A stretch of 64,000 bases of DNA, from contig JAZLGK010000211.1 in assembly GCA_045616265.1 (NCBI GenBank), positions 5,056-69,055 on the forward strand, read 5' to 3'. Under the pieces are notes generated by a model, which was not told the origin of the DNA, made no database searches, and saw nothing but the letters and a program-made list of their open reading frames with translations. Both the position numbers and the translations under genes were made by a program. Below, piece after piece: positions 9,584 through 24,040 of the stretch. The stretch comes from Candidatus Limivicinus sp. (GTDB taxonomy: Bacteria > Bacillota > Clostridia > Oscillospirales > Oscillospiraceae). How positions within the stretch are numbered: the stretch's first letter is position 1; the number at the start of each line of letters is the position of its first letter.

Positions 9584-9685
9584 TTTACCGCATCGTATGG
9601 CGGGGGCTCAGCTCCCGCCGATACGTTTTCCATCTGTAAGCAAAATACAAATCAGAATATTTTTATCAGAAAAGGAGAACAAACA

Positions 9686-11073: not shown

Positions 11074-12015
11074 TTACTTGAGAAGACCGTTCTCTTCGAT
11101 ATATTCAGCGGTGAGCATGGTAACACCGGTGTCCATATCTTCGAACTCTTCGGTGCCGTTCTTGAGGTACTCAATAGCGGTTTGGATGCCGTAGTAGCCC
11201 ATGTTGTAGGGGTTCTGAGCGGTGGTAGCTACGAGGAAACCGTCTGCAACGAGGTTGAGGATAGCGTCGGACTTATCGAAGCCAACTGCGAGAACCTTGC
11301 AGTCTTCGCCTTCAGCCTTGATTGCGTTGCCGACACCAACGGTGGTGCCTTCGTTTGCACCGAACAGTGCTACGACGCCGTCAGTGATGAAGTTGGTGGC
11401 AGCTTCCTGAGATCTTGCTGCGTCGCCATCGGTGTAGACAGGCTCGAGGACCTCGAACTTGGTGCCTTCGAAAGCCTTGCGGAAGCCGGCTTCACGCTGC
11501 TGGGTGGAAACGGTAGCAGCATTGACGTTTGCAATACCGATCTTGCCTTCGGTAACGCCTGCAGCGGTCAGAGCATCGAGAAGGGTCTTGCCGGCGAGCT
11601 CGCCTGCATTGGTGTTGTTGGTTGCGAGGGTCTGGAGAGCGACATCGGAGTTTGCGGGAGAGTCAACATAGATGAACTTTACGCCATCTGCATTGTACTG
11701 CTCGATAACTGCAACTTCGGTCTCGGGGCCGTTGGAAGCGAGAAGGATAACGTCTGCATTGTCAGCGTATGCATTGTTGATGCACTCGATCTGAGCAGCG
11801 TCATTCTTACCGGTTGTGGGGCCGGTCCACTTGTAGTTGATGGTGAGGTCTTTCTCTTCGGCAACAGCTGCCTGAGCGCCTTCATCGACGGAAACCCAGT
11901 GCATATCCTCAAGGTCCATGGTGATGAGGTATACGGTTTTTTCCTCTGCGAATGCGCCTGCGGAAAGGCTGAGTACCATAACCAGCGCGAGAACGATTGC
12001 GAACAGTTTCTTCAT
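11074..12015 (-). CDS. Sugar ABC transporter substrate-binding protein (RbsB-like)
   Basis: Signal peptide MKKLFAIVLALVMVLSLSAGAFA followed by a PBP type I sequence; strong RBS. Confidence 0.85.
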   Translation of the reverse strand: MKKLFAIVLALVMVLSLSAGAFAEEKTVYLITMDLEDMHWVSVDEGAQAAVAEEKDLTINYKWTGPTTGKNDAAQIECINNAYADNADVILLASNGPETEVAVIEQYNADGVKFIYVDSPANSDVALQTLATNNTNAGELAGKTLLDALTAAGVTEGKIGIANVNAATVSTQQREAGFRKAFEGTKFEVLEPVYTDGDAARSQEAATNFITDGVVALFGANEGTTVGVGNAIKAEGEDCKVLAVGFDKSDAILNLVADGFLVATTAQNPYNMGYYGIQTAIEYLKNGTEEFEDMDTGVTMLTAEYIEENGLLK

Positions 12016-12085
12016 GAAATTGTTCCTCCTTTTAATATTTATTAAAACGCTGTGCGTTTTAATTACGAATTGACCGCCTGAGAAC

Positions 12086-13108
12086 TCAGGACTTCTTGGC
12101 GGGACGCTTGGAGCTTCTGCGGAGAACGTCGATCAGAACGGAGAGAATGACGATGCCGCCGACAACGACATTTTTAAGGCCGACCTGCGTGTTGAGCATC
12201 TGCAGACCGTTGTCCATGACAGCCCATACACTTGAACCGACAATGACCGCCGCGAGAATACCCGTACCGCCCATCGTGGAAATACCGCCTATAACGGAAG
12301 CCGCAACGGCGAAGGTCTCGTAGCCGGTACCTGCGTTCATGGTGCCGGTGCCGGACTGGGCGCAGACGATGATGCCGACAACGCCGGCGCAGAAAGAAGA
12401 AATGAGATAGGCTTTGACGATCGTTCTGGGAACATTGACGCCGGAGAGCTTGGAGGCGTCAATATTGGAGCCGATGGCGTACATATGACGACCCGTGCGG
12501 GTGTAGGAAAGGACAAAGTTGAATATGAGCCAGATGACGATGGCGATCCAGAAGGTGTTGTATATGCCCGCCGTTTTGCCATAGTAGAAGAAATCCTGCA
12601 CGGCCTTGGCCTGCTCACGCCACTGACTGCCGGCGCCGACGATGGAGTCGGTGTTCATGTTGTTGTTGACCATCTGGGCAATGCCGCGGCAGATCGTCTG
12701 CGTACCGAGAGTAGCGACGAAGGGCGGAAGCTTGCAGCGGGCAACCAGTTCACCGTTCAGGACACCCACGGTGAGGCAGCAGACCATGCCGATCATGATG
12801 GCGGCAACAGGATGCATTCCGTTGCAGATGAGGGTGGCGATCGTCATGCAGTTCATACCGATGACGGAGCCGATGGAAAGGTCAATGTTGGCGGTTATCA
12901 GGACATAGCCCTGACCGATGCCGATGATAAGATAGGGAGCGATCTGACGGAGAAGATTGGCGATGTTGCGTTTGCCGAGGAAGTTGGGATTCTTGATCTG
13001 GAACAGGAGGCATAAAAACACAAGACCTATAGCGACCGTTACGACCTGTCCGACGCCTCGGGCGGAGAGAAATTTCTTAATGGGATTCTGTTTTGTTTTA
13101 ATTTCCAT
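12086..13108 (-). CDS. Sugar ABC transporter permease (RbsC-like)
   Basis: Multi-TM protein with NIDLSIGS and GSNIDASKLSGVNV motifs. Confidence 0.85.
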   Translation of the reverse strand: MEIKTKQNPIKKFLSARGVGQVVTVAIGLVFLCLLFQIKNPNFLGKRNIANLLRQIAPYLIIGIGQGYVLITANIDLSIGSVIGMNCMTIATLICNGMHPVAAIMIGMVCCLTVGVLNGELVARCKLPPFVATLGTQTICRGIAQMVNNNMNTDSIVGAGSQWREQAKAVQDFFYYGKTAGIYNTFWIAIVIWLIFNFVLSYTRTGRHMYAIGSNIDASKLSGVNVPRTIVKAYLISSFCAGVVGIIVCAQSGTGTMNAGTGYETFAVAASVIGGISTMGGTGILAAVIVGSSVWAVMDNGLQMLNTQVGLKNVVVGGIVILSVLIDVLRRSSKRPAKKS

Positions 13109-13126
13109 CTGAATATGCTCCTTATC

Positions 13127-14662
13127 TCAAACGTTCACGGCCTGTTCGCCGTCGAATTTATTTTCAAATCTGGTGGCATACTCAAGAATCTTTTCCTGAG
13201 TCGCATCCTCAATATTCAGCTCGCCCGTGATGCGTCCGTCGCACATGACGATGATTCTGTCGGCTATGCCCAGAACCTCCGGCATTTCGGAGGAGACAAA
13301 GATAACGGATATGCCTTTCTGCTTGAGCTCATTCATAATGTGGTATATCTCGACCTTAGCGGCAACGTCGATACCTCTTGTCGGTTCGTCAAAGATCACG
13401 ACTCTCGAATCCCGCGCCAGCCACTTTGCCACGACGACTTTCTGCTGGTTGCCGCCGGAAAGACTGCCCGCGTCCGCGTCGTCGCCCGCCATCTTGATCA
13501 CGAAGTTTTTCTTTGCCTTTTCCACCATCTCGGTGACCAGCTTTTTCTTCACTGCACCGATCTTGCTGCAGGCGATGTCAAGATTCGGAAGCTCGATATT
13601 CGAGCGGATGGAGAGCTTTGTGCAAAGACCGTCCTTTTTCCTGTCCTCGGGGGCAAGGACAAGCCCGTTTTTGATCGAATCGGCGGGAGAATTGATCTTG
13701 ACCTCCTTGCCGTCAATGAATATCTGACCGGATTCCTTCGGATCGACGCCAAAGATGGCTCGTGTGGTTTCGGTCCTTCCCGCGCCCATCAGTCCCGCAA
13801 AGCCGAGGATCTCGCCCTCGTAGGACTCAAAGGAGACGTCACGCACCATGCGCCCGGCGTTGAGATGTTTGACTTCAAGGATCTTTTTCCCCTTTTCGCA
13901 TTTGACGCGGGGGAATTTCTCTTTTATCTCGCGGCCGACCATGTTCGCTATGATATCGTTCATGGAGATATCCGCAAAGTTTGTTTCCAGAATGAACTGA
14001 CCGTCGCGCAGGATCGTAACTCTGTCAACAATGTGCTGGAGCTCTTCGAGACGGTGGGATATGTACACAATGCCTTTGCCCTCGGCGCGAAGCTGGCGGA
14101 TGATACGGAAAAGCTCCTCGATCTCGCGGTTTGTCAACGCGGAGGTAGGCTCGTCCATGATGAGGATCTTTGCATTGGTTGAAAGCGCCTTGGCAATTTC
14201 GACCATCTGCTGTTTGGATACCTGAAGGTCGCCCACGATGGTTGTCGGGTCAATGTCTATGTCGAGGCTTTTCAGGATCGAACGTGCCTCTTCGTTCATC
14301 TCCTTCTGGGAGACGATGACGCCCTTGTGCTTCTCACGCCCGAGGAACATATTCTCGGCAACCGTGAGGTGGCGGCACATATTGAGCTCCTGATGTATGA
14401 TCGCCACACCCAGCTCCTGTGCCTTCTTCGGATTCATTCCGTTGACTTCCTCACCGAAGATCTTCATGGTGCCGCTGTCCAGCGTATAGACGCCGGAGAG
14501 AATCTTCATAAGAGTGCTTTTACCGGCTCCGTTCTCGCCGAGGAGCGCCATGACCTCTCCGGCTTTCAGGCGGAAGTGAACATCGTCCAGCGCCTTGACG
14601 CCCGGAAAAACTTTGCTGACGTGGTCAAGCTCGACTATATATTCACCGGAAAACTGTTCCAT
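13127..14662 (-). CDS. Sugar ABC transporter ATP-binding protein (two NBDs, RbsA-like)
   Basis: Contains GENGAGKSTLMK, LQVSKQQMVEIAKAL, ILIMDEPTSAL, LSGGNQQKVVVAKWL and VIFDEPTRGID. Confidence 0.9.
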   Translation of the reverse strand: MEQFSGEYIVELDHVSKVFPGVKALDDVHFRLKAGEVMALLGENGAGKSTLMKILSGVYTLDSGTMKIFGEEVNGMNPKKAQELGVAIIHQELNMCRHLTVAENMFLGREKHKGVIVSQKEMNEEARSILKSLDIDIDPTTIVGDLQVSKQQMVEIAKALSTNAKILIMDEPTSALTNREIEELFRIIRQLRAEGKGIVYISHRLEELQHIVDRVTILRDGQFILETNFADISMNDIIANMVGREIKEKFPRVKCEKGKKILEVKHLNAGRMVRDVSFESYEGEILGFAGLMGAGRTETTRAIFGVDPKESGQIFIDGKEVKINSPADSIKNGLVLAPEDRKKDGLCTKLSIRSNIELPNLDIACSKIGAVKKKLVTEMVEKAKKNFVIKMAGDDADAGSLSGGNQQKVVVAKWLARDSRVVIFDEPTRGIDVAAKVEIYHIMNELKQKGISVIFVSSEMPEVLGIADRIIVMCDGRITGELNIEDATQEKILEYATRFENKFDGEQAVNV

Positions 14663-14692
14663 TTGTATCCCCTCCGTGCTGTTATCTTTTTA

Positions 14693-14721
14693 ATTTTATA
14701 GGCGGTTAAAAGGTTTGTCAA
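14693..14721 (-). promoter_or_regulatory. Internal promoter in front of the ABC genes
   Basis: Minus strand reads TTGACA, 17-nt spacer, TAAAAT. Confidence 0.5.
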
Positions 14722-14756
14722 TAGGAATTCAATATATCATAGAATATTTCGTGCCG

Positions 14757-15857
14757 TCAGCTGCACAGCAGGGTATACAGGATCTGCAGGATATCACGGT
14801 TGTCGGCGGAAATATAATCCACCTTTCCGCCCATGCGGCTGAAGGTCTTCATGTAGCGGAGATAGTAAGCAGGTTCGTCCATCGGCGGCTCACCCCGGGA
14901 CCAATCCCATGTGGATTTCTGCAAGTCGGCAACATGGATCGAAAAACTGTCAATGTTCCTTCCGCTCTGCAAAGAGACGTTCCTGCTCATGGAGAGGGAT
15001 TTCTCAAAGATCATCGGGGACATCACCGCCGAGCCGATAGAGAGGTAAACCCCGTGCTGTAAATTCGCTATGCTGTCCGCGTAGGAGAGAAAATCCGTTT
15101 CGGCACATCTGCCGACGGCGGCGCCTTTATTTGCATAGTGGGTATAGATAATGTCGTGTCCGAACATCGGATGGCAGGTGAAACGCCCATCCGAGCGGGA
15201 GACATAGGAATGGATGCTGAATCTCTTATAGGGATGGGAAATCTCAAGAAAGCCCTCTTTGAGCCCGCACAGCTCAACAGAATCTTTAAGATCCAACGCG
15301 GCAGCTCTTTTCCATCCGGGAACAGCTTTATCGGAGGCGACACTTTCCAGCTCGTCTGCGGACGGGATCAGAATGCCGTCGTCATTGACAAGCTTACCTA
15401 CGGAGGCGGCATAACCCAAGCCTTCATACGCACCGGCGGCGATGGCTAAATTAATATACTCGCCGGTCTCCTGCCAGGTGCCGAAGCGTCCTTTGGCAAC
15501 ATTGGCGCGGACGTCCTCACTGCTTCGGCCGAGGAAGGCAAACTCCCAGTCGTGGATGATCCCCGCGCCGTTTGTGCAGACGTGGGTAAAGCAGCCCTTT
15601 TCCAGCAGCGCGCCGATGAGTCTGCCGAGACCGTTCTTGATGGAATGAGCGCCGAAAGCGCATACGACCGCCGCTCCGCTTTCCTTGGCGGAACGTATTT
15701 CTTCCGCTATCTCTTCACAGTGAGAGACAAGAGCTCCGTCAAATCCGTCAAGAGAGACTCCCGCCGGTTCAAGGGAAGCCTCGGCGATATCTACTTTGCT
15801 GTATCTGTCTGCAAGAGGAGGATAGATCATTTCCGTCCTGTCAAAAAGACCGTTCAT
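14757..15857 (-). CDS. Uncharacterised protein with deoxyhypusine-synthase-family-like sequence pattern
   Basis: FGAHSIKNGLGRLIGALLEKGCFTHVCTNGAGIIHDWEFAFLG resembles the GA..GL...I..LI..G.....T.GA..HD.E.A.G core of DHS homologues. This is an assignment by eye only. Confidence 0.35.
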   Translation of the reverse strand: MNGLFDRTEMIYPPLADRYSKVDIAEASLEPAGVSLDGFDGALVSHCEEIAEEIRSAKESGAAVVCAFGAHSIKNGLGRLIGALLEKGCFTHVCTNGAGIIHDWEFAFLGRSSEDVRANVAKGRFGTWQETGEYINLAIAAGAYEGLGYAASVGKLVNDDGILIPSADELESVASDKAVPGWKRAAALDLKDSVELCGLKEGFLEISHPYKRFSIHSYVSRSDGRFTCHPMFGHDIIYTHYANKGAAVGRCAETDFLSYADSIANLQHGVYLSIGSAVMSPMIFEKSLSMSRNVSLQSGRNIDSFSIHVADLQKSTWDWSRGEPPMDEPAYYLRYMKTFSRMGGKVDYISADNRDILQILYTLLCS

Positions 15858-15874
15858 TTATGTACTCCCCCTGC

Positions 15875-17725
15875 TCAGAATTTCCATCCGAGATATTTTT
15901 TCAATATGGGCATCCACGAGAAGTCCGGGATGAGGATATCCGCACCAGCCAGCACAAGCCGTTCGCGCTTTTTGAGGTTGAGCCCGAAACGCTGATTTTC
16001 GTCACTAAGTACGCCGACAGTGAGGAAACCGTTTTTTCTGCCCTCGCGGATCTCTACCGGTCCGTCGCCGAAGACAACGGCACGGATGCTTTCTCCGTTT
16101 TCGGCGAAGCTGATACTCTTTATGATATTGCGCATGACAGTTTTTTTCGGGTCACTGGAAATATCTCCGACGGAACCGAATATACCGCCCGTGAACAGCT
16201 CGGATGTGCCGAAAGCGTCCGTTTCTTTCCTCACGTCCACAAGGTCGGTGCCGCTGGCAAGATACACCTTGATCCCCGCCTGTCCGAGACTTTCGATAAA
16301 CTCAAGGGAACCCTTCATGGTGAAATCGGAAGCATCGTTTATGCCTGCCGCTATTCTTGCGTATTTTTTATCGACCGCCCTGTTGAGAGCCGCCGTATAG
16401 ATCTTCTTGTATTCCGCCGCGGTTTTTATCTTATCCGCAGGAACATAGCCGTATCTTTTCACCATGTCCGCAAGCATCTGCATCTGCACGATGGTCTGAA
16501 TGCCCGTGGTCTTTTCGATCATGGCATCAATATCGGCATAGATGGCGGCAATTTTCTCCGCACTGAGGGAGGCATAGTAATCCCCCGTGATCGCTTCGAT
16601 CATGACGGCGCGCATGATTTTTTCCCAGCCGTGGCGGATGGTGGAAACGGTTCCGTCGTGGTCAAAGACAGCCACGTCCGGCTGACCGAAATGCACGGCG
16701 TCAGGATTTATGATCTCAATATCCGTGCCGTCAAGGTAGTTTGCCTGCCTTATATCCCCGGCAAGAGCGGGATTATAACGGTAATCCGGGTCGGAGAGAA
16801 GCTCTTTTGTCTCCTCCATACGGGGATGACCTGTCGCCCGGAGCGTTTTCGTGCTGACGGCGGCGGAGGCGTTGGCGAAGGGAAGCGCCTCTTCAAGCGC
16901 CTTTCCGGCGGCAAGAGAGCAGACAAGACCGGACAGAAAGGCATCTCCCGCTCCGACGGTATCGGTTGCCCAGATAGCGTTGATCCCCGGAACGGAGGAC
17001 AAAGTATGTCCGTCAAAGCCTATTGCACCGTCAGCGCCGAGAGTTATAACAACATTCGCTGATTCCCCGTAAAGCTTCACCAGTGCAGAGGCACATTCTT
17101 CCGGGGTTTCCGCGCCGGTAAGGGCTCTCGCCTCGGAGAGATTCATCTTATAGGAGCCGTTGGGATATAGAAGCTCCCTGCGGCTGTCGATCCACACAGG
17201 GACATTGACCTGTGAAAGAATTGCGGCAAGCCCCTTGCGGAAATACTCCGTATGGAGCGTGTTCGAGAACTGAGAATTGACAACGATCACATCATAGCGG
17301 TTGATCTTCTCCCGGAGTTTAGTAAGGATCGCGTCAAGATGCGCCTTGGAATAGACATTTTCCGCGCCGAGGTCGTATCTCGGAAGCTCACTGTCGGACT
17401 CGTCGTAGATTTTATGATAAACAAAGGTATCAAATCCGTCATATCCCGTGAAGCCATCGGTATTCACGCCGAAGCTGTTGAGAGAGTCTTTGAGAATATC
17501 GGCCCAGATGTCATTTCCGCAGGCGCCGTACAGATCACACTGCGCACCGAGGACGGCAATATTCACCGCCAGATTCCCGGCTCCGCCGGCTCCGCAGGAA
17601 TACCGTTTGATATAGTTGATGGGAAGTCCGGTTTCAACGGATATTTCACCGCTTTGTTCCGAAAAATAGTAGAAATCCAGTGCGGCGTCTCCGATAACGG
17701 CTATGCGGCAATCAGAAAAATTCAT
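15875..17725 (-). CDS. Bifunctional PfkB-family sugar(-phosphate) kinase (HldA/RfaE-domain-I-like) fused to a capped HAD-superfamily phosphatase or mutase domain
   Basis: N-terminal half has RIAVIGDAALDFYY, GGAGNLAVNIAVLGA and DTVGAGDAFLSGL. C-terminal half has HAD motif I VAVFDHDGTVS, motif II YLASGTD and motif IV VFGDGPVE. Confidence 0.7.
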   Translation of the reverse strand: MNFSDCRIAVIGDAALDFYYFSEQSGEISVETGLPINYIKRYSCGAGGAGNLAVNIAVLGAQCDLYGACGNDIWADILKDSLNSFGVNTDGFTGYDGFDTFVYHKIYDESDSELPRYDLGAENVYSKAHLDAILTKLREKINRYDVIVVNSQFSNTLHTEYFRKGLAAILSQVNVPVWIDSRRELLYPNGSYKMNLSEARALTGAETPEECASALVKLYGESANVVITLGADGAIGFDGHTLSSVPGINAIWATDTVGAGDAFLSGLVCSLAAGKALEEALPFANASAAVSTKTLRATGHPRMEETKELLSDPDYRYNPALAGDIRQANYLDGTDIEIINPDAVHFGQPDVAVFDHDGTVSTIRHGWEKIMRAVMIEAITGDYYASLSAEKIAAIYADIDAMIEKTTGIQTIVQMQMLADMVKRYGYVPADKIKTAAEYKKIYTAALNRAVDKKYARIAAGINDASDFTMKGSLEFIESLGQAGIKVYLASGTDLVDVRKETDAFGTSELFTGGIFGSVGDISSDPKKTVMRNIIKSISFAENGESIRAVVFGDGPVEIREGRKNGFLTVGVLSDENQRFGLNLKKRERLVLAGADILIPDFSWMPILKKYLGWKF

Positions 17726-17744
17726 GAAATCTCCAAAAAAATAG

Positions 17745-17772
17745 TTGCTAAATATTTCAAACGTTGTATAAT
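17745..17772 (+). promoter_or_regulatory. Promoter of the ROK-regulator operon
   Basis: TTGCTA, 16-nt spacer, TGTATAAT (extended -10). Confidence 0.5.
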
Positions 17773-17781
17773 AGGGTTATT

Positions 17782-17798
17782 AGTAAAATGATTTTACT
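17782..17798. promoter_or_regulatory. Candidate operator palindrome shared by two face-to-face promoters
   Basis: AGTAAAA-TGA-TTTTACT has perfect 7-bp arms. It lies just downstream of both predicted transcription start sites. Confidence 0.4.
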
Positions 17799-17810
17799 TA
17801 ATCCTCCATA

Positions 17811-17839
17811 ATTATACAGTCATCACCCTTTTTTGTCAA
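17811..17839 (-). promoter_or_regulatory. Consensus promoter of the kinase-HAD / DHS-like operon
   Basis: Minus strand reads TTGACA, 17-nt spacer, TATAAT. Confidence 0.6.
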
Positions 17840-17863
17840 GTATTTTATGAACCGGAGCGGCCT

Positions 17864-19063
17864 ATGAATAACACAAAAGTGAACAATGCGCAGGAAATGA
17901 AGTATTTTAACCGACTTCAGGTTCTGAAAATGATTGCAACGGAACATGTGATCTCCAGAAGCGAGATTACGGAGATTTCCGGGCTTACCAAGATGACCGT
18001 GTCCAACATTACTGCCGATCTGCTTGCGGCGGGGATGATCCGGGAATTTCGCTCCGACTCACACAGCGATACCCACATCGGAAGGACGCCGATGTTTCTG
18101 AAGCTGTCGGATAACTCCCCCTGTGTTTTAGGAGTATGTATTGGAAGAACCTACTGCGCTGTTCAGATCTGCGATCTGTCCGCCCGTGTGATACTCGAAG
18201 ATGTTTTCCACTATCCGGACAGCATCACCGGCGATGAGCTGTCCGAACTCATTCTTGCAAAGAGTCGGGCGCTCATGCACGCTTCCGGAAGGAAGATCAC
18301 GCTTGCGGGGATCACCGCCATCGGTCCGGTGGATTCCACGCGCGGTATGATTCTTGCACCGCCGGGGTTTCACGGCATAACCAACCTCAGCATTGCTCCG
18401 TTTCTGGAAAAGGAGCTTGAACTTCCCTGTATGCTGTTCCACGATGCCGCCGCCGCCGCACTGGCCGAATATCTCTACGGCTTCGGAAAGGGACTCAACG
18501 ATCTTATCTATATTCTGATTCACAACGGCATAGGAGCCGGTATCGTGATCAACGGGAAGATCATAGAAGGTCTCACGGGTCTCGGAGGAGAACTCGGCCA
18601 TACCTCTATCGATCAGAACGGCCCTTTGTGCTCCTGCGGATGCAGAGGCTGCCTTGAACTGTATGCTAACGGCAGGAGAATTCTGCAAGATTATAATGAG
18701 GCCTCCGTCGGGCAGTTGACTGCGGAGCCGGCGCAGGCGCTTCCCATGATGATCGAGCTGGCAGGACGCGGTGATCCGGCGGCAGTCAGAGCCCTTGACA
18801 CTTTTTCGGATTATCTTTCGGTCGCACTCGGGAATCTTCTGAACATGATCAGCAGTGAAAACATATTTCTCGGCTATCAGGGCAGCGACAACGGAATTTT
18901 TGAAAATATGCTGCGGACAAAGCTGCTTTCCAGGATCGTCGCGGGAGAAAACCGCAAACTCAACGTCCGGCACTCCGCGTTCCACAGCAAAGGTCCGATC
19001 GTGGGCGCGACAGCCTATGCCGTTCAGAAAATATTTGACGGCGAGGTAGTGCTTGATATATAA
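17864..19063 (+). CDS. ROK-family transcriptional regulator (N-terminal wHTH plus ROK domain)
   Basis: The N-terminal segment RLQVLKMIATEHVISRSEITEISGLTKMTVSNITADL is an HTH. The ROK zinc motif GHTSIDQNGPLCSCGCRGCLE is present. Confidence 0.85.
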   Translation: MNNTKVNNAQEMKYFNRLQVLKMIATEHVISRSEITEISGLTKMTVSNITADLLAAGMIREFRSDSHSDTHIGRTPMFLKLSDNSPCVLGVCIGRTYCAVQICDLSARVILEDVFHYPDSITGDELSELILAKSRALMHASGRKITLAGITAIGPVDSTRGMILAPPGFHGITNLSIAPFLEKELELPCMLFHDAAAAALAEYLYGFGKGLNDLIYILIHNGIGAGIVINGKIIEGLTGLGGELGHTSIDQNGPLCSCGCRGCLELYANGRRILQDYNEASVGQLTAEPAQALPMMIELAGRGDPAAVRALDTFSDYLSVALGNLLNMISSENIFLGYQGSDNGIFENMLRTKLLSRIVAGENRKLNVRHSAFHSKGPIVGATAYAVQKIFDGEVVLDI

Positions 19064-19097
19064 TTTGCTAAAATTGGTTTACAAGGAGATAAATATC

Positions 19098-19784
19098 ATG
19101 AAACGTTCAGAGATCAACGCATCCATAAAAGAGCTTGAAGCCATGTGCGCAAAGTGCGGTTTTCAGCTTCCGCCCTTCTGCAGCTACACCCCCGAGCAGT
19201 GGCAGACTCTCGGCCATGAGTACGATGAGATCAGGGACTGTATGCTCGGCTGGGACATCACCGACTACGGCTCCGGGGATTTCAACAAGATCGGCTTTTC
19301 CCTTATCACCATCCGCAACGGCAACCGCAAAATGGCTGACAAGTACCCCAAGGTCTATGCCGAAAAGATCCTTTATCTGCGCGAAAGCCAGTATGCGCTC
19401 AACCATTTCCACTGGTATAAGACCGAGGATATCATCAACCGCGGCGGCGGCAACGTTCTGATCCGTGTCTACAACTCTCTCCCCGATGAGTCCATCGACT
19501 ACGAAAGCGACGTGACCGTACATACCGACGGCAGGACCTACACCGTCCCCGCCGGCACGCAGGTTCGTCTGACTCCGGGCGAGAGCATCCATATCCAGCA
19601 GTATATGTACCATGATTTCTCCGTCGAAGCGGGCAGCGGTCCTGTCCTTCTGGGCGAAGTCAGCCAGTGCAACGACGACAATACCGACAACCGTTTCAAT
19701 CCTCCCGCAGGACGCTTCCCCGCCATCGATGAGGATGAGCCTCCCTACCGCCTCCTCTGCAACGAGTATCCTGAGGCAAAGTAA
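19098..19784 (+). CDS. D-lyxose/D-mannose ketol-isomerase (cupin)
   Basis: MKRSEINA...LPPF, LGWDITDYG, HFHWYKTEDIINRGGGNVLI, GESIHI and GEVSQCNDDNTDNRF match the D-lyxose isomerase family. ATG 19098 has AAGGAGA upstream. Confidence 0.85.
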   Translation: MKRSEINASIKELEAMCAKCGFQLPPFCSYTPEQWQTLGHEYDEIRDCMLGWDITDYGSGDFNKIGFSLITIRNGNRKMADKYPKVYAEKILYLRESQYALNHFHWYKTEDIINRGGGNVLIRVYNSLPDESIDYESDVTVHTDGRTYTVPAGTQVRLTPGESIHIQQYMYHDFSVEAGSGPVLLGEVSQCNDDNTDNRFNPPAGRFPAIDEDEPPYRLLCNEYPEAK

Positions 19785-19786
19785 GC

Positions 19787-20440
19787 ATGGTAAGAGAAGA
19801 CAGCATAAAGGATACCGCCAAAGAGCTTTTTACAAGATATGAAGCTCTTCGGCAGTGTGAAAGTGATATATGGGCAGCGTATGAACTGCTTGTCAAATGC
19901 TTTGAAAACGGCGGAAAGCTCCTGATCTGCGGCAGCGGCGGCAGCGCCTCGGACGCTCTGCACATCACGGGCGAGCTTATGAAATCGTTCATAACAAAAA
20001 GAGGCATTGATGCATCTGTCGCGGAGGAACTCAAAAAACGCTTTCCCGAGGATGCGGAATACCTCGTCGGCTCTTTGCAGGGCGCACTTCCGACCGTCGC
20101 GCTTGTGGAAAATTCCGCGCTGGCGACCGCCGTTCAGAACGATATCGCCGGTGATCTTGTCACCGCGCAGCAGGTGATCGGTCTCGGCAAAAGCGGAGAT
20201 GTGCTGCTTGCCATCTCCACCTCCGGCAACTCCCGCAGCGGCTCACTGGCCGTTGAGGTCGCCGCCGCGAAGGGTATGGGCACCATCGGCCTTACCGGGG
20301 CAGACGGCGGAAAATACAAGATGCTTTGCGACTGCACGATCCGCGTTCCGGAAAAGGAGACCTTTAAGGTGCAGGAGCTTCATTTACCCGTATACCATGC
20401 GCTCTGCCGTATGCTGGAAATCCACTTTTTCGGAGAATAA
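19787..20440 (+). CDS. SIS-domain phosphoheptose isomerase homologue (GmhA/DiaA family)
   Basis: Contains GGKLLICGSGGSASDALH, AISTSGNSRS, GLTGADGGK and KVQELHLPVYHALC, which are typical of GmhA. Confidence 0.75.
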   Translation: MVREDSIKDTAKELFTRYEALRQCESDIWAAYELLVKCFENGGKLLICGSGGSASDALHITGELMKSFITKRGIDASVAEELKKRFPEDAEYLVGSLQGALPTVALVENSALATAVQNDIAGDLVTAQQVIGLGKSGDVLLAISTSGNSRSGSLAVEVAAAKGMGTIGLTGADGGKYKMLCDCTIRVPEKETFKVQELHLPVYHALCRMLEIHFFGE

Positions 20441-20442
20441 AC

Positions 20443-21486
20443 ATGATTTATCTCGGACTTGACATCGGCGGAACAAAATGCGCCGTTATCCTCGGAAAAA
20501 GCGCTGACGGAGCGCCCGAAATTCTCGGCAGGCTTTCTTTTGCCACCGGCTCCGCCGCCTCCCCCGAAGAAGCTCTTGAAAAAATGTGCGCTTTGGGTGA
20601 TGAGCTTATCAGCGAACACGGAGTATCAAAGGAGAGCATATCGGCAATAGGCATAAGCTGCGGCGGCCCTCTTGACAGCAGAAAAGGGCTGATCTGTTCG
20701 CCCCCAAACCTCCCCGGCTGGGATAAAATTCCCGCGGCGGAGATCGTCCGCTCTCACTTCGGCGCACCCGTTCTGCTTCAGAACGACGCCAACGCCGGGG
20801 CGCTTGCCGAATGGAAGTTCGGTGCGGGGCGTGGGTGCGAAAGTATGGTCTTTATCACCTTCGGCACGGGCTGCGGTGCGGGACTGATACTTGACGGCAG
20901 ACTGTATTCCGGAACGAACGACAACGCCGGGGAATGCGGACATATCCGTCTTACGGACTTCGGGCCGGTCGGCTACGGAAAGGCAGGCTCCGTCGAGGGC
21001 TACTGCAGCGGCGGCGGCATCGCCCAGTTGGGGCAGACGTACCTCTATGAAATGGTTCAGCAGGGCGCAAAGTCGGAGCTTGCCAATCTGTACCGCTCCG
21101 GCACGGAGATCACGGCAAAGCTTTTAGCGGATTATGCCCGAAAGGGCGACGGGACGGCAAAACGTGTTTTTGATGTTTCCGCCGCAATGCTCGGAAAGTC
21201 GCTTTCCATGATCATTGACCTTCTCAACCCCGAGCGTATCATAATCGGCGGAGTGTTCGCACGCTGTACCGACCTTCTCCTTGAGGGCTGTGAAAAAGTC
21301 ATACACTGCGAAGCGCTTGCGCCTGCCGCAAATGTCTGCCGTGTTCTGCCTGCGGGACTTGGTGAGCGGATCGGTGACTATGCCGCCCTTGCGGTCGCGA
21401 AATATCTTGCCGATTCGGGCGTTGTATCCGGACAAAAAGTATGGGAACAGGGATCCCTTTTGTCTGCATCCTGTTTGAATTTTTGA
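20443..21486 (+). CDS. ROK-family sugar kinase (no HTH; lacks the canonical CxCGxxGCxE zinc motif)
   Basis: Has the ATP-binding N-terminus LGLDIGGTKCAV, then NDANAGALAE and GECGHIRL. Confidence 0.8.
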   Translation: MIYLGLDIGGTKCAVILGKSADGAPEILGRLSFATGSAASPEEALEKMCALGDELISEHGVSKESISAIGISCGGPLDSRKGLICSPPNLPGWDKIPAAEIVRSHFGAPVLLQNDANAGALAEWKFGAGRGCESMVFITFGTGCGAGLILDGRLYSGTNDNAGECGHIRLTDFGPVGYGKAGSVEGYCSGGGIAQLGQTYLYEMVQQGAKSELANLYRSGTEITAKLLADYARKGDGTAKRVFDVSAAMLGKSLSMIIDLLNPERIIIGGVFARCTDLLLEGCEKVIHCEALAPAANVCRVLPAGLGERIGDYAALAVAKYLADSGVVSGQKVWEQGSLLSASCLNF

Positions 21487-21504
21487 AAATGTGAGGAAAT
21501 AAGA

Positions 21505-22539
21505 TTGGCCACCATAGAAGACGTTGCAGAAAAGGCAGGCGTTTCACGCATGACGGTCTCCCGCGTTATCAATAACAGCGGGTATGTGAGTGCCGCAACC
21601 AGAACCCGGGTCGAGGAAGTTATTAAGGCGATGAATTTCAAACCGAATATGCTTGCCAAGGCTCTGGCCACTCAACAGCAGAAGACTCTTGCATATGTTA
21701 TGGTCAATATCTCAGATCCTTTTCACAACCTGGTCAAGCAGGGGTTTGAATCGATCGCCTACCACAGCGGGTATATCGGCATTATGTGTGATGTGCATTC
21801 TGCCGCAAGACAGCAGGACTATATTGACATCTTTCAGGAGAACAGGACCGGCGGTGTGGCATTCCACCATCTGGCGATCACCCGGGATATTATTGATGAG
21901 CTTGAACGGAGCGGCACGAAATGTGTGCTCATTGATAATGAATTTGATATTCCCTCCGTATCGAGCGTAAATACGGACAATTACCTCGGAGCGCAGATGG
22001 CGGTTGACCATCTATTTGAGCGGGGCTACCGCCGGATAGGCTGTATTCACGGAATACTCGAGCCGTATGACGGCGGCGAGAACGTCCCCTACGAGGATAC
22101 CTTTCAGTTTCGCATATGGCAGCAGCGTTCGGACGGCTTTCTGGACGCCATGTCAAAATATTCTCTTGCGCCGGCGGTGTTTTACACCTGCAACGGCAGA
22201 GCGGATATTGCGGAGAAGCAGTCGGAAGATATCGTCGAAAAGCTTCTTGCCATGGAGGAGCCTCCGGATGCGCTCTATTGCGAGAACGATACCATAGCGC
22301 TGGCGATCCTGAAAAGACTGCAGGAACATAACGTGAAAGTCCCCGGGCAGATAGCGCTGATCGGGCATGACGGACTGGACGTGATCCGTCTTCTGCATCC
22401 GGAAATAACGACTATTGCGCAGCCCCGCTATCAGATGGGGTGCCTTGCCGCAAAACTGCTGATCGATGCCATTGAAAGGAAAACGAAGCCGGAACATATT
22501 GTCCTGGGTCCGAGCCTTTCCGTAGGGGAGACTACATAA
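21505..22539 (+). CDS. LacI-family transcriptional regulator (TTG start)
   Basis: MATIEDVAEKAGVSRMTVSRVINNSGYVSAATRTRVEEVIKAMNFKPN is a canonical LacI HTH, followed by a PBP-like effector domain. Confidence 0.9.
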   Translation: MATIEDVAEKAGVSRMTVSRVINNSGYVSAATRTRVEEVIKAMNFKPNMLAKALATQQQKTLAYVMVNISDPFHNLVKQGFESIAYHSGYIGIMCDVHSAARQQDYIDIFQENRTGGVAFHHLAITRDIIDELERSGTKCVLIDNEFDIPSVSSVNTDNYLGAQMAVDHLFERGYRRIGCIHGILEPYDGGENVPYEDTFQFRIWQQRSDGFLDAMSKYSLAPAVFYTCNGRADIAEKQSEDIVEKLLAMEEPPDALYCENDTIALAILKRLQEHNVKVPGQIALIGHDGLDVIRLLHPEITTIAQPRYQMGCLAAKLLIDAIERKTKPEHIVLGPSLSVGETT

Positions 22540-22593
22540 CAGAATAACGGGGCTGACGTATCATGCAGCGATACATCAGCCCCGTTATTCTGT
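22539..22593. terminator. Bidirectional terminator between convergent genes
   Basis: 17-bp perfect inverted repeat ACAGAATAACGGGGCTG / CAGCCCCGTTATTCTGT. Confidence 0.7.
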
Positions 22594-22598
22594 TTCGG

Positions 22599-23837
22599 TT
22601 ACGGATTATCGATCAGAACGACCGATACATCGTTGACGTTCGTTCCGGTGGGACCGGTCACGATCAGTCCGCCGATGGATCGAAGGGCGTGATAGGAGTC
22701 GTTGTTTTCCAGTACGGCGGCATGATCGAGTCCCTTTTCTGCCAGCGCGTCCATGGTATCCCCATCAACGTAGCCTCCCGCGGCATCTGTGGGACCGTCG
22801 GTCCCGTCGCTGCCGACGCTGAATACCGCAGCATTTTTTATCCCTCGAATCTCCGCCGCAGCCGAGAGAGCAAGCTCCTGATTCCGTCCGCCGAGTCCGC
22901 TGCCCTTGAGATGCACGACGGTCTCGCCGCCTGCAATATAAGCCCTCTTAGCTCCGTCTCTTTGATGAGTGACGGCGATCGACGACAGGAAGCGCCCGGC
23001 CTGCGAAGCCTCACACCCGAGAGTGTCGGTCAGAATGATCGGTTCATAACCGAGAGTTTTGCATATATCCGCCGTCGCCCTGCACAGATGTGTGACGTTG
23101 CCCGTGATGCAGGTCGTCACATTTTCCACGGTTTTGGGGGTTTCGGTACGGATGATCTTCTCTGCCTCGGCGGAGAGCTTTATTCCGTATTTTCGGATGA
23201 TCGCTTCCGCATCCGCGCAGGTACTGCTGTCGGGAAACGCGGGACCGCTTGCGATCATATCCAGAGGGTCACCCACAATATCGCTCAGCACGACGCAATA
23301 AACGGAAGCCGGAGCGCAGAGCCGACCGAATCTGCCGCCCTTGACCGCGCTCAGTCTTTTCCTTATGGTATTTATCTCGGTAATGGCCGCACCGCAGGCT
23401 AAAAGCTGAGAAGTGATGTCCCGAAGCTCATCAAGGGGTACAAGGGGCTTTTCAAACAGGGCGCTGCCGCCGCCGGAAAGCAGAAGCAGTACGGTATCCT
23501 CAGCACGGAGACCGCTGACGGTGCGAATAGCTTCGGCGGTACTTTTCACGGAGTTTTCGTCCGGCAGAGGGTGCCCTGCTTCATAACAGGGGATGGAGCC
23601 GATCTCACCTTTCACATGACCGTATTTTGTGATAACGATCCCCCGGTCGATCCGCTCGGAAAGAATCTCATAAGCGGCTTTTGCCATCTGCCAGGCGGCT
23701 TTTCCAACGGAGACCAGTACGATCCTTCCGGGAAAGTCGGCTTTTTCAAGAGCCCGTTTGACCGCCTTGTCCGGCAGAACGGAACGGATCGCGTACTCAA
23801 TGATCTCATCTGCGTCTTCTCTCAGTTTTGTGTTCAT
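22599..23837 (-). CDS. Glycerate 2-kinase (DUF4147 + MOFRL; GckA/TtuD type)
   Basis: Contains VGKAAWQMAKAA and LLLLSGGGSALFE. The C-terminal GSDGTDGPTDAAGGYVD and GPTGTNVND are MOFRL signatures. Confidence 0.8.
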   Translation of the reverse strand: MNTKLREDADEIIEYAIRSVLPDKAVKRALEKADFPGRIVLVSVGKAAWQMAKAAYEILSERIDRGIVITKYGHVKGEIGSIPCYEAGHPLPDENSVKSTAEAIRTVSGLRAEDTVLLLLSGGGSALFEKPLVPLDELRDITSQLLACGAAITEINTIRKRLSAVKGGRFGRLCAPASVYCVVLSDIVGDPLDMIASGPAFPDSSTCADAEAIIRKYGIKLSAEAEKIIRTETPKTVENVTTCITGNVTHLCRATADICKTLGYEPIILTDTLGCEASQAGRFLSSIAVTHQRDGAKRAYIAGGETVVHLKGSGLGGRNQELALSAAAEIRGIKNAAVFSVGSDGTDGPTDAAGGYVDGDTMDALAEKGLDHAAVLENNDSYHALRSIGGLIVTGPTGTNVNDVSVVLIDNP

Positions 23838-23979: not shown

Positions 23980-24040
23980 TCTACACAGATAAGCCATGCC
24001 AAAACATGGTGACGAAAAAATTTTATGGAGGAATAACCAA

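What the first reader, a model, noticed from the sequence alone, without database searches (positions are those of the whole stretch)
11074..22539. Sugar island combining heptose-biosynthesis-type enzymes with an importer and catabolic regulators
The two divergent operons encode a ribose-type ABC importer, a DHS-like protein and an HldA/RfaE-domain-I-like PfkB kinase fused to a HAD domain. They also encode a ROK repressor, D-lyxose/D-mannose isomerase, a GmhA-like SIS phosphoheptose isomerase, a ROK kinase and a LacI repressor. GmhA, a PfkB heptose-7-P kinase and a HAD phosphatase are the first three steps of the nucleotide-heptose pathway (GmhA, HldA/HddA, GmhB). No nucleotidyltransferase (HldC/HddC) or glycosyltransferase is present in this island. 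Instead the genes are wired to an uptake system, an aldose-ketose isomerase specific for manno-configured sugars and two sugar-responsive repressors. This suggests a catabolic or salvage route for a heptose or another rare manno-configured sugar. The route would be import, isomerisation or phosphorylation, then entry as sedoheptulose-7-P. Alternatively the island produces heptose phosphates without nucleotide activation. I do not know of a characterised pathway with this gene set.
Basis: partly seen in the sequence, partly recalled or inferred. Interest (0 to 1): 0.7.

Follow-up and report, generated by a model that had tools for sequence, protein, structure and literature searches.

The report
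Importer-linked heptose-phosphate module with unknown enzyme
This sugar-uptake island carries a widespread, uncharacterised relative of the bacterial heptose-sugar pathway, built around an enzyme family of unknown function, and may be the first known route for consuming seven-carbon cell-wall sugars.

Summary
They are a ribose-type ABC importer, a deoxyhypusine-synthase-fold protein (NCBIfam "GSU2086 family"), a PfkB kinase fused to a HAD domain, a ROK regulator, a D-lyxose/D-mannose isomerase, a GmhA-like SIS isomerase, a ROK kinase and a LacI repressor. No nucleotidyltransferase lies in the 64 kb window.

The core is a conserved module of PfkB, HAD and the DHS-like protein, often with GmhA-like SIS and ROK kinase. 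It occurs in Spirochaetota, Bacteroidota, the PVC group, Hydrogenedentota and some Clostridia, next to importers, repressors and mannosidase-type hydrolases. The lyxose isomerase is a rare add-on.

The DHS-like family (more than 2,000 clusters at 50% identity) is tied to heptose chemistry. A shorter form sits in GmhA/HldA/GmhB/HldC/heptosyltransferase clusters. It is found fused to each of the four enzyme types of that pathway.

Best reading (about 0.45): an inducible catabolic or salvage route that turns manno-heptoses into sedoheptulose-7-P, with the DHS-like protein as an NAD-type epimerase acting on the bisphosphate. A mannose (hexose) version and a biosynthetic reading remain open. No description was found in the literature.

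The parts
11074..12015 (-). Substrate-binding protein of a CUT2 (ribose-type) ABC importer. It has an SPase-I type signal peptide (MKKLFAIVLALVMVLSLSAGAFA/EEK).
   Evidence: Pfam Peripla_BP_4 E 3.5e-42. RbsB/AlsB are the best NCBIfam models, far below cutoff. Best PDB sequence match is 4wut, a 'ribose' SBP, E 1.7e-33. Translation.
12086..13108 (-). Single ABC permease (BPD_transp_2, RbsC/AlsC type).
   Evidence: AlsC model 188.8 bits, below cutoff.
13127..14662 (-). ABC ATPase with two fused nucleotide-binding domains (RbsA type).
   Evidence: RbsA model 589 bits; cutoff 745.
14757..15857 (-). DHS-fold protein of the GSU2086 family, long form (366 aa). This is the key unknown enzyme.
   Evidence: NF052581 scores 285.6 bits against a cutoff of 250. 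AF2 model has pLDDT 92. Foldseek best hits are deoxyhypusine synthase 7cmc (E 2e-6, TM 0.43-0.51), LOR/SDH 3c2q and the NAD-binding C-terminal domain of AgrE/ArgZ. A family profile against PDB hits AgrE at E 2.6e-4. There are more than 4,410 homologues, 50-60% identical across phyla.
15875..17725 (-). Bifunctional protein. The N-terminal PfkB kinase domain (about 16844-17704) is related to HldA. The C-terminal C1-capped HAD domain (about 15878-16738) has motif I FDHDGT and motif IV GDGPVE.
   Evidence: 473 homologues with the same architecture. One search shows clade relations. HAD model has pLDDT 93; nearest structures are beta-phosphoglucomutases, TM 0.58/0.74. No GmhB/HAD-IIIA match.
17726..17863 (.). 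Divergent control region. A perfect TTGACA-17-TATAAT lies on the minus strand (17839..17811) and TTGCTA-16-TATAAT on the plus strand (17745..17772). The palindrome AGTAAAAT-G-ATTTTACT (17782-17798) is a candidate operator.
   Evidence: These are consensus matches only; function is inferred.
17864..19063 (+). ROK-family transcriptional regulator (N-terminal HTH region plus ROK domain; Mlc/NagC-like).
   Evidence: ROK domain covers residues 89-388, E 2.1e-48. Mlc and NagC are the best NCBIfam models, over the full length.
19098..19784 (+). D-lyxose/D-mannose-type aldose-ketose isomerase (cupin).
   Evidence: Lyx_isomer scores 324.8 bits. It is 46% identical over the full length to E. coli O157 ECs_5070/z5688. 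A promoter-like site lies at 19035-19064.
19787..20440 (+). GmhA-like SIS isomerase with a 26-residue insertion.
   Evidence: gmhA TIGR00441 scores 138 bits, below the 209 cutoff. PDB GmhA matches reach E 1.7e-30. H59, E63, Q196, H204 and STSGNS are conserved.
20443..21486 (+). ROK-family sugar kinase with no DNA-binding domain.
   Evidence: ROK E 5e-50. ROK glucokinase subfamily scores 164 bits. Glucokinases are the best PDB sequence matches.
21505..22539 (+). LacI-family repressor.
   Evidence: LacI HTH E 2.5e-21 and Peripla_BP_3 E 1.2e-31.
22543..22589 (.). Strong hairpin (20-pair stem). It is a terminator shared with the convergent glycerate kinase gene and marks the right border of the island.

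Best explanation
The island is a repressor-controlled locus for uptake and conversion of a manno-configured seven-carbon sugar. The most likely substrates are D-glycero- and/or L-glycero-D-manno-heptose. The locus is built on a conserved paralogue of the NDP-heptose pathway that lacks the nucleotide-activation step.

Proposed flow (all steps inferred):
1. The CUT2 ABC system imports the free sugar.
2. The ROK kinase phosphorylates the terminal primary hydroxyl, giving heptose-7-P.
3. The HldA-related PfkB domain adds the anomeric (beta-1) phosphate.
4. The DHS-fold GSU2086-family protein uses a tightly bound NAD-type cofactor, as deoxyhypusine synthase and AgrE do. It interconverts stereoisomers of the 1-phosphorylated heptose. 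The best guess is C6 epimerisation, L,D to D,D.
5. The beta-phosphoglucomutase-like HAD domain removes one phosphate.
6. The GmhA-like isomerase converts D-glycero-D-manno-heptose-7-P to sedoheptulose-7-P, which enters the pentose phosphate pathway.
7. The lyxose/mannose-type isomerase is an accessory shortcut. It turns a free manno-aldose into its ketose (heptose into sedoheptulose, or mannose into fructose) for the ROK kinase.
8. The ROK regulator and the LacI repressor keep both operons off without substrate.

Shown: gene content, family relationships, conservation of the module, and the genetic link of the DHS-like family to heptose enzymes. Inferred: substrate, direction, and the reaction of the DHS-like protein.
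For: 1. SIS is GmhA-like. The zinc/catalytic residues H59, E63, Q196 and H204 and the STSGNS phosphate loop are conserved in 35-39 of 39 SIS proteins next to the DHS-like gene. Some of these SIS proteins reach the gmhA equivalog cutoff (L049 211 bits; L064 204; L048 198; cutoff 209.45).
2. The PfkB domain scores best with rfaE_dom_I (122.5 bits, against ribokinase at 77). It scores 52-108 bits against HldA/HldE kinases, compared with 18-60 against other PfkBs.
3. The DHS-like family is linked to heptose genes in several ways.
   - GSU2086 lies between hldE and gmhA in Geobacter (PMC5585712).
   - In Parabacteroides goldsteinii it lies in a GmhA-GmhB-HldE-GT9 cluster.
   - Fusion proteins join it to HldC-type NT, GmhA-like SIS, GmhB-like HAD, module-type HAD and PfkB, including a PfkB-HAD-DHS triple fusion.
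   - In 22 short-form loci, NT is adjacent or fused in 13, HldA is present in 10 and GT9 in 6.
4. Module conservation (genome scan). Of 85 loci, 62 have PfkB, 60 have HAD (fused in 50), 40 have SIS, 30 have ROK kinase and 25 have LacI. ABC, SSF or MFS importers and glycoside hydrolases occur in the same operons.
5. None of 64 long-form metagenome loci has an NT or GT9, and the window has none either. The product is therefore not nucleotide-activated locally.
6. The heptose clusters that carry the DHS-like gene plus GT9 show no clear HldD. That leaves the epimerase role vacant.
7. The fold relatives (DHS, AgrE C-terminal domain) are NAD-dependent hydride-borrowing enzymes (the mechanism is from established knowledge).
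8. The HAD domain resembles beta-phosphoglucomutase, an enzyme that handles a beta-1,6-bisphosphate.
Against: - No biochemical or expression data exist, so substrate and direction are guesses.
- The kinase, SIS and HAD proteins are all below the equivalog cutoffs of HldE, GmhA and GmhB. They form separate clades, which could mean a different substrate such as hexose phosphates.
- Recurrent neighbours in other genomes are families known for mannose and mannosides: GH38 in 9 loci, GH92, GH2 and GH130, and AGE/cellobiose-2-epimerase-like proteins in 20 of 85. No heptosidase is known.
- The proposed route costs two ATP per sugar.
- NT-DHS fusions suggest that the short form acts on ADP-heptose, a substrate the window cannot make locally.
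- NAD binding by the DHS-like protein is inferred only from a distant fold match (TM about 0.45) and a weak profile match.
- HldD may be encoded elsewhere in genomes whose clusters lack it.
Confidence: 0.45

Rival explanations
1. Hexose version. The module is a paralogue of the heptose pathway that has shifted to mannose. The ROK kinase makes mannose-6-P. The GmhA-like SIS acts as a phosphomannose isomerase (fructose-6-P to mannose-6-P). The PfkB-HAD pair and the DHS-like protein process beta-mannose-1,6-bisphosphate or beta-mannose-1-P. The island is then a mannose/mannoside (or lyxose) utilisation locus.
For: Neighbours in related loci are GH38, GH92, GH2 (beta-mannosidase-like architecture), GH130 and AGE-family (cellobiose/mannose 2-epimerase-like) proteins. 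The window carries a D-lyxose/D-mannose isomerase 46% identical to the characterised z5688. The ROK kinase is most like glucokinases. The kinase, SIS and HAD all fall outside the HldE, GmhA and GmhB equivalogs. The HAD fold is nearest to a hexose mutase.
Against: ROK kinase plus a phosphomannose isomerase would suffice for mannose, which leaves the most conserved trio (PfkB-HAD-DHS-like) without a purpose. Canonical-length SIS proteins that reach or approach the gmhA equivalog cutoff sit directly beside long-form DHS-like genes. The DHS-like protein of the true heptose cluster in P. goldsteinii is 60-64% identical to module copies, which argues for the same chemistry. All fusion partners are heptose-pathway enzymes.
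Confidence: 0.2
2. Biosynthetic reading. The module makes a beta-heptose phosphate (HBP or heptose-1-P, possibly epimerised) from sedoheptulose-7-P or from salvaged heptose. The product serves a surface glycan or acts as a signalling metabolite. The nucleotidyltransferase and glycosyltransferase are encoded elsewhere, and the importer and repressors merely provide salvage control.
For: The order GmhA, HldA-like kinase, HAD phosphatase is the biosynthetic order. Module-type HAD also occurs fused to short-form DHS-like proteins (P0313, P0380). The trio occurs alone, without transporters, in some genomes (L093, L005). The short form is clearly biosynthetic.
Against: In many phyla the module lies in the same operon as importers, LacI or ROK repressors and glycoside hydrolases. 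NT and GT9 are absent from all 64 long-form metagenome loci and from 84 of the 85 loci of the genome scan (L043 is the exception). A ROK kinase for a free sugar is not needed for biosynthesis from sedoheptulose-7-P. Hosts include Treponema and Clostridia. That these lack LPS heptose is from general knowledge, not tested here.
Confidence: 0.15
3. Ordinary pentose/hexose island. This would be a ribose-, allose- or lyxose-type utilisation locus whose heptose-like annotations are only family-level resemblances, with the DHS-like gene an unrelated passenger.
For: The transporter is ribose/allose-like. The E. coli O157 lyxose isomerase cluster also combines a CUT2 ABC system, an isomerase and a PfkB kinase. 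The island sits among other sugar loci (RhaA, two more CUT2 systems).
Against: The PfkB-HAD/DHS-like/SIS/ROK combination recurs across at least eight phyla, with the DHS-like protein 50-60% identical. That is incompatible with a passenger gene. The E. coli cluster has an aldolase and no SIS, HAD or DHS-like gene. The window SBP is only 27% identical to the E. coli one.
Confidence: 0.05

Closest known systems
ADP-L-glycero-beta-D-manno-heptose biosynthesis (GmhA, HldA/HldE kinase, GmhB, HldC/HldE transferase, HldD)
   Same: It has a GmhA-type SIS isomerase with the same catalytic residues. It has a PfkB kinase nearest to HldA. A HAD phosphatase activity follows the kinase. The accessory DHS-like family occurs inside true heptose clusters next to GT9 heptosyltransferases.
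   Different: There is no nucleotidyltransferase, heptosyltransferase or HldD. The HAD is C1-capped and beta-PGM-like, not HAD-IIIA GmhB. The kinase and SIS are distinct clades below equivalog cutoffs. The genes are wired to an ABC importer, a ROK sugar kinase, an aldose-ketose isomerase and two repressors.
E. coli O157:H7 z5688 (ECs_5070) D-lyxose/D-mannose isomerase cluster
   Same: It has a CUT2 ABC importer, a Lyx_isomer cupin (46% identical) and a PfkB kinase under a local regulator.
   Different: The E. coli cluster has a class II aldolase and a plain PfkB kinase. It has no SIS, HAD, ROK kinase or DHS-like gene. The SBPs are only 27% identical.
Deoxyhypusine synthase and the AgrE/ArgZ C-terminal (LOR/SDH-like) NAD domain
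   Same: The overall Rossmann-type DHS fold is shared. Conserved N-terminal motifs align with the NAD-binding part of AgrE and DHS: GAHxIKNG, and TNGAGxIHDWE aligned with HDIE/DHD.
   Different: Sequence identity is 10-13% and TM only 0.4-0.5. Pfam DS is not significant (E 0.0067). The context is sugar phosphate metabolism, not polyamine or amino-acid metabolism. No lysine or ornithine chemistry is implied.
Maltose phosphorylase / beta-phosphoglucomutase logic (beta-sugar-1-P and beta-1,6-bisphosphate handling)
   Same: The HAD domain is structurally closest to beta-PGM. Its fused kinase is related to an enzyme that makes a beta-1,7-bisphosphate.
   Different: No GH65-type phosphorylase is present. 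Whether the domain acts as a mutase or a phosphatase is unknown.

Membership tests
GmhA (sedoheptulose-7-P isomerase, TIGR00441) | Score at or above the curated equivalog cutoff (209.45 bits) | tested here: not met
   The window SIS scores 138.4 bits in two stretches because of a 26-residue insertion. Canonical-length SIS proteins beside DHS-like genes in L049, L064 and L048 score 211, 204 and 198.
GmhA (sedoheptulose-7-P isomerase, TIGR00441) | Zinc/catalytic residues (B. pseudomallei H64, E68, Q175, H183) and the Ser/Thr phosphate loop | tested here: met
   H59, E63, Q196, H204 and STSGNS are present. They are conserved in 35-39 of 39 module SIS proteins. The residue roles come from the literature on 2x3y, recalled rather than checked here.
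GmhA (sedoheptulose-7-P isomerase, TIGR00441) | Isomerase activity on sedoheptulose-7-P | not testable with these tools
   An enzyme assay is needed.
HldA / HldE domain I (heptose-7-P 1-kinase, TIGR02198) | Score at or above the cutoff (345 bits), or clustering inside the HldA clade | tested here: not met
   It scores 122.5 bits. This is the best of all PfkB models but far below cutoff. It scores 52-81 bits against four HldA/HldE kinases, which score 108-229 among themselves. It is a sister clade, not a member.
GmhB (HAD-IIIA heptose-1,7-bisphosphate 7-phosphatase) | Capless HAD-IIIA fold and a match to the GmhB/HisB-N models | tested here: not met
   There is no GmhB or HAD-IIIA hit at E 0.01. 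The model shows a large helical C1 cap, and the nearest structures are beta-phosphoglucomutases. HAD motifs I-IV are present in the sequence.
GSU2086 family (NCBIfam NF052581) | Score at or above the curated cutoff (250 bits) | tested here: met
   It scores 285.6 bits over profile positions 2-299 of 301. The window protein is the long form, with an insertion of about 45 residues relative to the short form.
Deoxyhypusine synthase (Pfam DS, PF01916) | Significant match to the family profile; catalytic lysine and spermidine site | tested here: not met
   DS gives E 0.0067 and 16 bits against a cutoff of 27. The similarity is at the fold level only.
D-lyxose/D-mannose isomerase (Pfam Lyx_isomer; NF051472) | Full-length match to the family and similarity to a characterised member | tested here: met
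   PF07385 scores 324.8 bits over 222 of 222 positions. It is 46% identical to z5688. The Gram-negative equivalog NF051472 scores 255 bits, below its 350 cutoff. This makes it a family member, with substrate range untested.
Complete NDP-heptose biosynthesis locus | Presence of an HldC/HddC-type nucleotidyltransferase | tested here: not met
   tblastn with three HldC-type domains finds nothing in the 64 kb window (best E 0.012, 53 residues, inside the ABC ATPase gene).
CUT2 (ribose-type) ABC sugar importer | Peripla_BP_4 SBP, BPD_transp_2 permease and a fused double ATPase | tested here: met
   The substrate is not assignable, because all equivalog scores are below cutoff.

The most novel reading that the evidence does not exclude
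The island would be the first catabolic pathway for LPS-type heptoses (L-glycero- and D-glycero-D-manno-heptose). In this reading a new NAD-dependent, deoxyhypusine-synthase-fold epimerase acts on heptose carrying a 1-phosphate. The short form of the same family would be a non-orthologous replacement of HldD (ADP-heptose 6-epimerase) in heptoglycan clusters of Bacteroidota, Geobacter, candidate-phyla bacteria and DPANN archaea.
Probability: 0.25. Interest if true: 0.85.

Novelty: new variant of a known kind. Interest (0 to 1): 0.72.

Why it matters
Heptoses are universal parts of Gram-negative envelopes, and their activated forms are innate-immune agonists. Yet the searches run here found no route for degrading or salvaging them.

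The analysis defines a widespread module. The central protein has more than 4,400 clusters at 90% identity and about 2,100 at 50%. The module re-uses heptose-pathway chemistry in an uptake context. It also ties a large 'hypothetical protein' family to heptose metabolism through fusions and gene order.

If the family is an epimerase, it fills the apparent HldD gap in many heptoglycan clusters. It would also give a direct experimental handle, by complementation of an E. coli hldD mutant. If the module is catabolic, it shows how gut and sediment bacteria recycle envelope sugars, and possibly how they lower the ADP-heptose/HBP precursors available to the host.

Tried and rejected
1. 'The DHS-like protein is the missing GmhB.' Rejected: it co-occurs with GmhB (L043, L087, L097) and with the HAD domain.
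2. 'It is a second nucleotidyltransferase.' Unlikely: it is fused to functional-looking HldC domains (rfaE_dom_II 168.7 bits).
3. 'The SDR near it in P. goldsteinii is HldD.' Rejected: the best model is GDP-fucose synthase, and heptose_epim scores 61 bits against a cutoff of 274.6.
4. The mannosylglycerate idea (GH38/MngB plus the adjacent glycerate kinase). Not pursued. The glycerate kinase is convergent and separated by a terminator. The window has no GH38.
5. The sialic-acid-like reading of AGE + DHDPS + SSF neighbours. Only 3 loci fit, and it is not general.
6. A Pfam census of 105 remaining neighbours found no further recurrent partner.
7. Organism identification failed. The exact-sequence look-ups carried no names, and the window has no tRNA.
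8. Literature searches for GSU2086, DHS-like plus heptose, heptose catabolism/salvage/heptosidase, and alternative HldD gave no description of the family or pathway.

Full report
**1. The observation**

The region 11074-22539 holds ten ORFs in two divergent operons.

Minus strand:
- A Peripla_BP_4 substrate-binding protein.
- One BPD_transp_2 permease.
- A double-domain ABC ATPase. Together these form a ribose-type (CUT2) importer.
- A 366-aa protein with no significant Pfam match. It passes the NCBIfam 'GSU2086 family' model (285.6 bits; cutoff 250).
- A 616-aa fusion of a PfkB kinase and a HAD domain.

Plus strand:
- A ROK regulator with an N-terminal HTH region.
- A Lyx_isomer cupin. Its real start is 19098, and it is 46% identical to the characterised E. 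coli O157 z5688.
- A GmhA-like SIS protein.
- A ROK kinase.
- A LacI repressor.

The 138-bp divergent region has consensus promoters on both strands and an 8+8 palindrome. A 20-bp-stem hairpin at 22543-22589 ends the island.

The flanks are other sugar loci: a PfkB kinase, a CUT2 ABC system and RhaA upstream; a convergent glycerate kinase and a third CUT2 system downstream. No HldC-type nucleotidyltransferase is detectable anywhere in the 64 kb window.

**2. What the individual proteins are**

*SIS protein.* It aligns with solved GmhA structures at E 1e-30. It keeps the residues that correspond to the B. pseudomallei GmhA zinc ligands (H59, E63, Q196, H204) and the STSGNS phosphate loop. A 26-residue insertion splits the match, so it scores below the gmhA equivalog cutoff (138 against 209 bits).

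*PfkB domain.* It scores best with the HldE kinase-domain model (122.5 bits, against ribokinase at 77) but far below its cutoff. In an all-against-all comparison it falls in a clade of its own. That clade is nearer to HldA/HldE kinases than to other PfkB kinases.

*HAD domain.* It has all four HAD motifs but is not GmhB-like. It shows no HAD-IIIA hit. Its confident model (pLDDT 93) has a large helical C1 cap, and beta-phosphoglucomutases are its nearest structures.

*GSU2086-family protein.* It gives a confident model (pLDDT 92). The best structural matches are deoxyhypusine synthase, an LOR/SDH-like archaeal protein and the NAD-binding C-terminal domain of AgrE/ArgZ, all at low TM (0.4-0.5). 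A family profile reaches AgrE at E 2.6e-4, over the first Rossmann beta-alpha-beta unit. 'DHS-like' is therefore correct at the fold level only.

**3. The island is one instance of a conserved module**

The kinase-HAD architecture has 473 detectable homologues. The DHS-like protein has more than 4,410 homologues at 90% clustering and 2,147 clusters at 50%. It is 50-60% identical between Clostridia, Spirochaetota, Bacteroidota, Planctomycetota, Verrucomicrobiota/Kiritimatiellia, Lentisphaerota, Hydrogenedentota, Calditrichota and others.

In 85 genomic loci the DHS-like gene is accompanied as follows:

| Partner | Loci (of 85) |
|---|---|
| PfkB | 62 |
| HAD of the same type | 60 (fused to PfkB in 50) |
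| GmhA-like SIS | 40 |
| ROK kinase | 30 |
| LacI | 25 |
| AGE-family epimerase/isomerase | 20 |
| CUT1 ABC genes | about 19 |
| GH38 | 9 |
| GFO/IDH/MocA oxidoreductase | 9 |
| Metallo-beta-lactamase-fold protein | 9 |
| SSF transporter | 7 |
| FGGY kinase | 6 |
| GH92 / GH2 / sulfatase | 3 each |

A typical Sphaerochaeta operon is LacI< kinase-HAD, DHS-like, AGE, SBP, permease, permease, ROK kinase, SIS, MBL. A Pfam census of 105 other neighbours found no further recurrent partner. The lyxose isomerase is found with the module in only one other locus (L127), so it is an accessory of this genome. The trio also occurs alone, or as separate genes (L005, L093).

**4. The DHS-like family belongs to heptose metabolism**

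Four independent lines support this.

(a) The name-giving gene GSU2086 lies between hldE and gmhA in Geobacter sulfurreducens. Its transposon-insertion phenotype is similar to theirs, though polarity cannot be excluded (PMC5585712).

(b) In Parabacteroides goldsteinii a copy lies in a glycan cluster with GmhA, GmhB, HldE and a GT9 heptosyltransferase-like gene. This copy is 52% identical to the window protein and 60-64% identical to other module copies.

(c) Fusion proteins join the family to:
- an HldC-type nucleotidyltransferase (P0258, P0262, P0267, P0336; rfaE_dom_II 168.7 bits);
- a GmhA-like SIS domain (P0311, P0349);
- a GmhB-like HAD (P0328);
- the module-type HAD (P0313, P0380);
- a PfkB kinase (P0340);
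- PfkB and HAD together (P0242).

(d) A shorter form (about 300-335 aa) lacks roughly residues 160-205 of the window protein. It is embedded in heptose-nucleotide clusters of uncultured bacteria and a Pacearchaeota archaeon. In 22 such loci the nucleotidyltransferase is fused or close upstream in 13, an HldA-type kinase is present in 10, GT9 in 6, GmhB in 4 and an ARMT1-type phosphatase in 2. The common order is kinase, phosphatase, NT, DHS-like, GT9.

By contrast, none of 64 long-form metagenome loci has an NT or GT9. They have PfkB (33), module HAD (31), SIS (17), AGE (15) and ROK (8).

None of these heptose clusters shows a convincing HldD:
- The P. goldsteinii SDR is GDP-fucose-synthase-like.
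- I searched all loci with the E. coli HldD sequence. That sequence was recalled from memory, so this is a soft test. It found only a 28%-identical SDR in one cluster.

**5. Mechanism proposed**

The parts fit a route in which:
1. a free manno-configured heptose is imported;
2. the ROK kinase phosphorylates it at C7;
3. the HldA-related domain phosphorylates it at the anomeric position;
4. the DHS-like enzyme isomerises it stereochemically;
5. the HAD domain trims it back to a monophosphate;
6. the GmhA-like enzyme isomerises it to sedoheptulose-7-P.

The DHS-like step is the least certain. Its fold relatives use tightly bound NAD+ for transient oxidation. The one reaction of the classical pathway with that mechanism, the HldD 6-epimerisation, has no visible enzyme in the clusters that carry the family. 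The gene order DHS-like then GT9 also recalls hldD-waaF-waaC of E. coli (recalled, not tested here). I therefore favour a 6-epimerase acting on heptose that bears a phosphate (long form) or ADP (short form) at O1.

That would let the module use L-glycero-D-manno-heptose, the abundant LPS form. It would also explain why a kinase/phosphatase pair brackets the enzyme. The lyxose/mannose isomerase would convert free D,D-heptose to sedoheptulose, or mannose to fructose, as a side entry.

Confidence by claim:
- Heptose-pathway relationship of the module: about 0.85.
- Catabolic or salvage direction into sedoheptulose-7-P: about 0.5.
- Epimerase assignment: about 0.3.

**6. Rivals**

*Mannose version (about 0.2).* The strongest rival is that the long-form module has shifted to mannose phosphates. 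Its recurrent neighbours are families known for mannosides. All three 'heptose' enzymes are divergent clades, and the HAD fold is that of a hexose mutase. Against it, ROK kinase plus an isomerase would already suffice for mannose. SIS proteins at or near the gmhA equivalog cutoff sit beside long-form genes. Every fusion partner is a heptose-pathway enzyme.

*Biosynthetic reading (about 0.15).* The module would make heptose-1-P or HBP for a glycan or signal, with the NT encoded elsewhere. This fits the enzyme order. It fits poorly with importers, repressors and hydrolases in the same operons, and with hosts such as Treponema and Clostridia.

*Ordinary ribose/lyxose island with a passenger gene.* This is excluded by the cross-phylum conservation of the gene set.

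**7. Comparison with known systems and novelty**

The island works like a truncated, re-wired NDP-heptose pathway, but it is not a member of that pathway. It has no nucleotidyltransferase. The GmhB feature is not met. The HldA and GmhA equivalog thresholds are not met, although the GmhA catalytic residues are present.

It shares only the importer type, the cupin isomerase and a PfkB kinase with the E. coli O157 z5688 cluster, which uses an aldolase instead.

Searches of open literature and preprints found no description of the GSU2086/DHS-like family, of the kinase-HAD fusion, or of heptose catabolism or salvage. A commentary on the recent survey of NDP-heptose enzymes across kingdoms lists isomerase, kinase, phosphatase and transferase classes only (PMC11461863).

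I rate the finding a new variant of a known kind. It contains an enzyme family of unknown reaction that could turn out to be categorically new chemistry for its fold.

**8. Limits**

Everything about substrate, direction and the DHS-like reaction is inference from gene context, fusions and fold. The organism could not be identified: the nearest DHS-like homologues are from Eubacteriales/Clostridiales MAGs (65-70%). The locus sets are the best-scoring 80 per scan and include many short contigs, so the frequencies are descriptive rather than unbiased.

Noticed in passing
window 3763-10966: A separate sugar locus lies just upstream: a PfkB kinase (3763-4665), a CUT2 ABC system (SBP 4778-5845, ATPase 5937-7556, two permeases 7569-9583) and L-rhamnose isomerase RhaA (9686-10966). 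It is convergent with the island's SBP gene.
   Followed up: partly
window 22599-23837 (-) and 23996-28049 (+): A glycerate 2-kinase (DUF4147/MOFRL) is convergent with the LacI gene and shares the big hairpin at 22543-22589. A third CUT2 ABC system (SBP, ATPase, permease) follows it. A link to mannosylglycerate-type substrates was considered but not supported.
   Followed up: partly
window 11074-12015, 4778-5845, 23996-24967: All three sugar-binding proteins carry signal peptides ending in ...AFA. That is the signal-peptidase-I type rather than a clear lipobox. This is unusual for a monoderm Firmicute and hints at a diderm host or a non-lipid anchoring mode.
   Followed up: no
window 17782-17798: A perfect palindrome, AGTAAAAT-G-ATTTTACT, sits between the two divergent promoters. 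It is a candidate operator for the ROK or LacI regulator.
   Followed up: no
P0241, P0269 (proteins): Tandem duplications of the DHS-like domain occur within one polypeptide (693 and 679 aa). This is consistent with the family working as a dimer, like deoxyhypusine synthase.
   Followed up: no
L092 (Candidatus Pacearchaeota contig), L091: The short-form DHS-like gene occurs in DPANN-type archaea. In L092 it is fused to an HldC-type transferase beside GmhA, HldA, a GT9-NUDIX fusion and a PMT_2 glycosyltransferase. In L091 it stands alone among archaeal housekeeping genes.
   Followed up: partly
L089/L090 5796-6704; L088 11099-13699; P0262: ARMT1/DUF89 'damage-control phosphatase' domains take the place of GmhB in some heptose clusters. 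In some cases they are fused to the transferase and the DHS-like domain. This suggests a non-orthologous heptose-bisphosphate phosphatase.
   Followed up: no
L018, L021, L023, L026 (termite-gut Treponema): Here the kinase-HAD and DHS-like genes follow 6-phosphogluconate dehydrogenase directly. They are followed by a conserved 341-aa protein with no Pfam or NCBIfam match. This is a link to the pentose phosphate pathway.
   Followed up: partly
L040, L046, L006: AbiEi/AbiEii type IV toxin-antitoxin pairs are inserted right next to the kinase-HAD/DHS-like genes in Victivallales and Eubacteriales loci.
   Followed up: no
window 15860-17062 (+), 18128-18985 (-) and others: Long antisense ORFs of up to 400 aa overlap the real genes. 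They have no family support and look like by-products of the composition.
   Followed up: no
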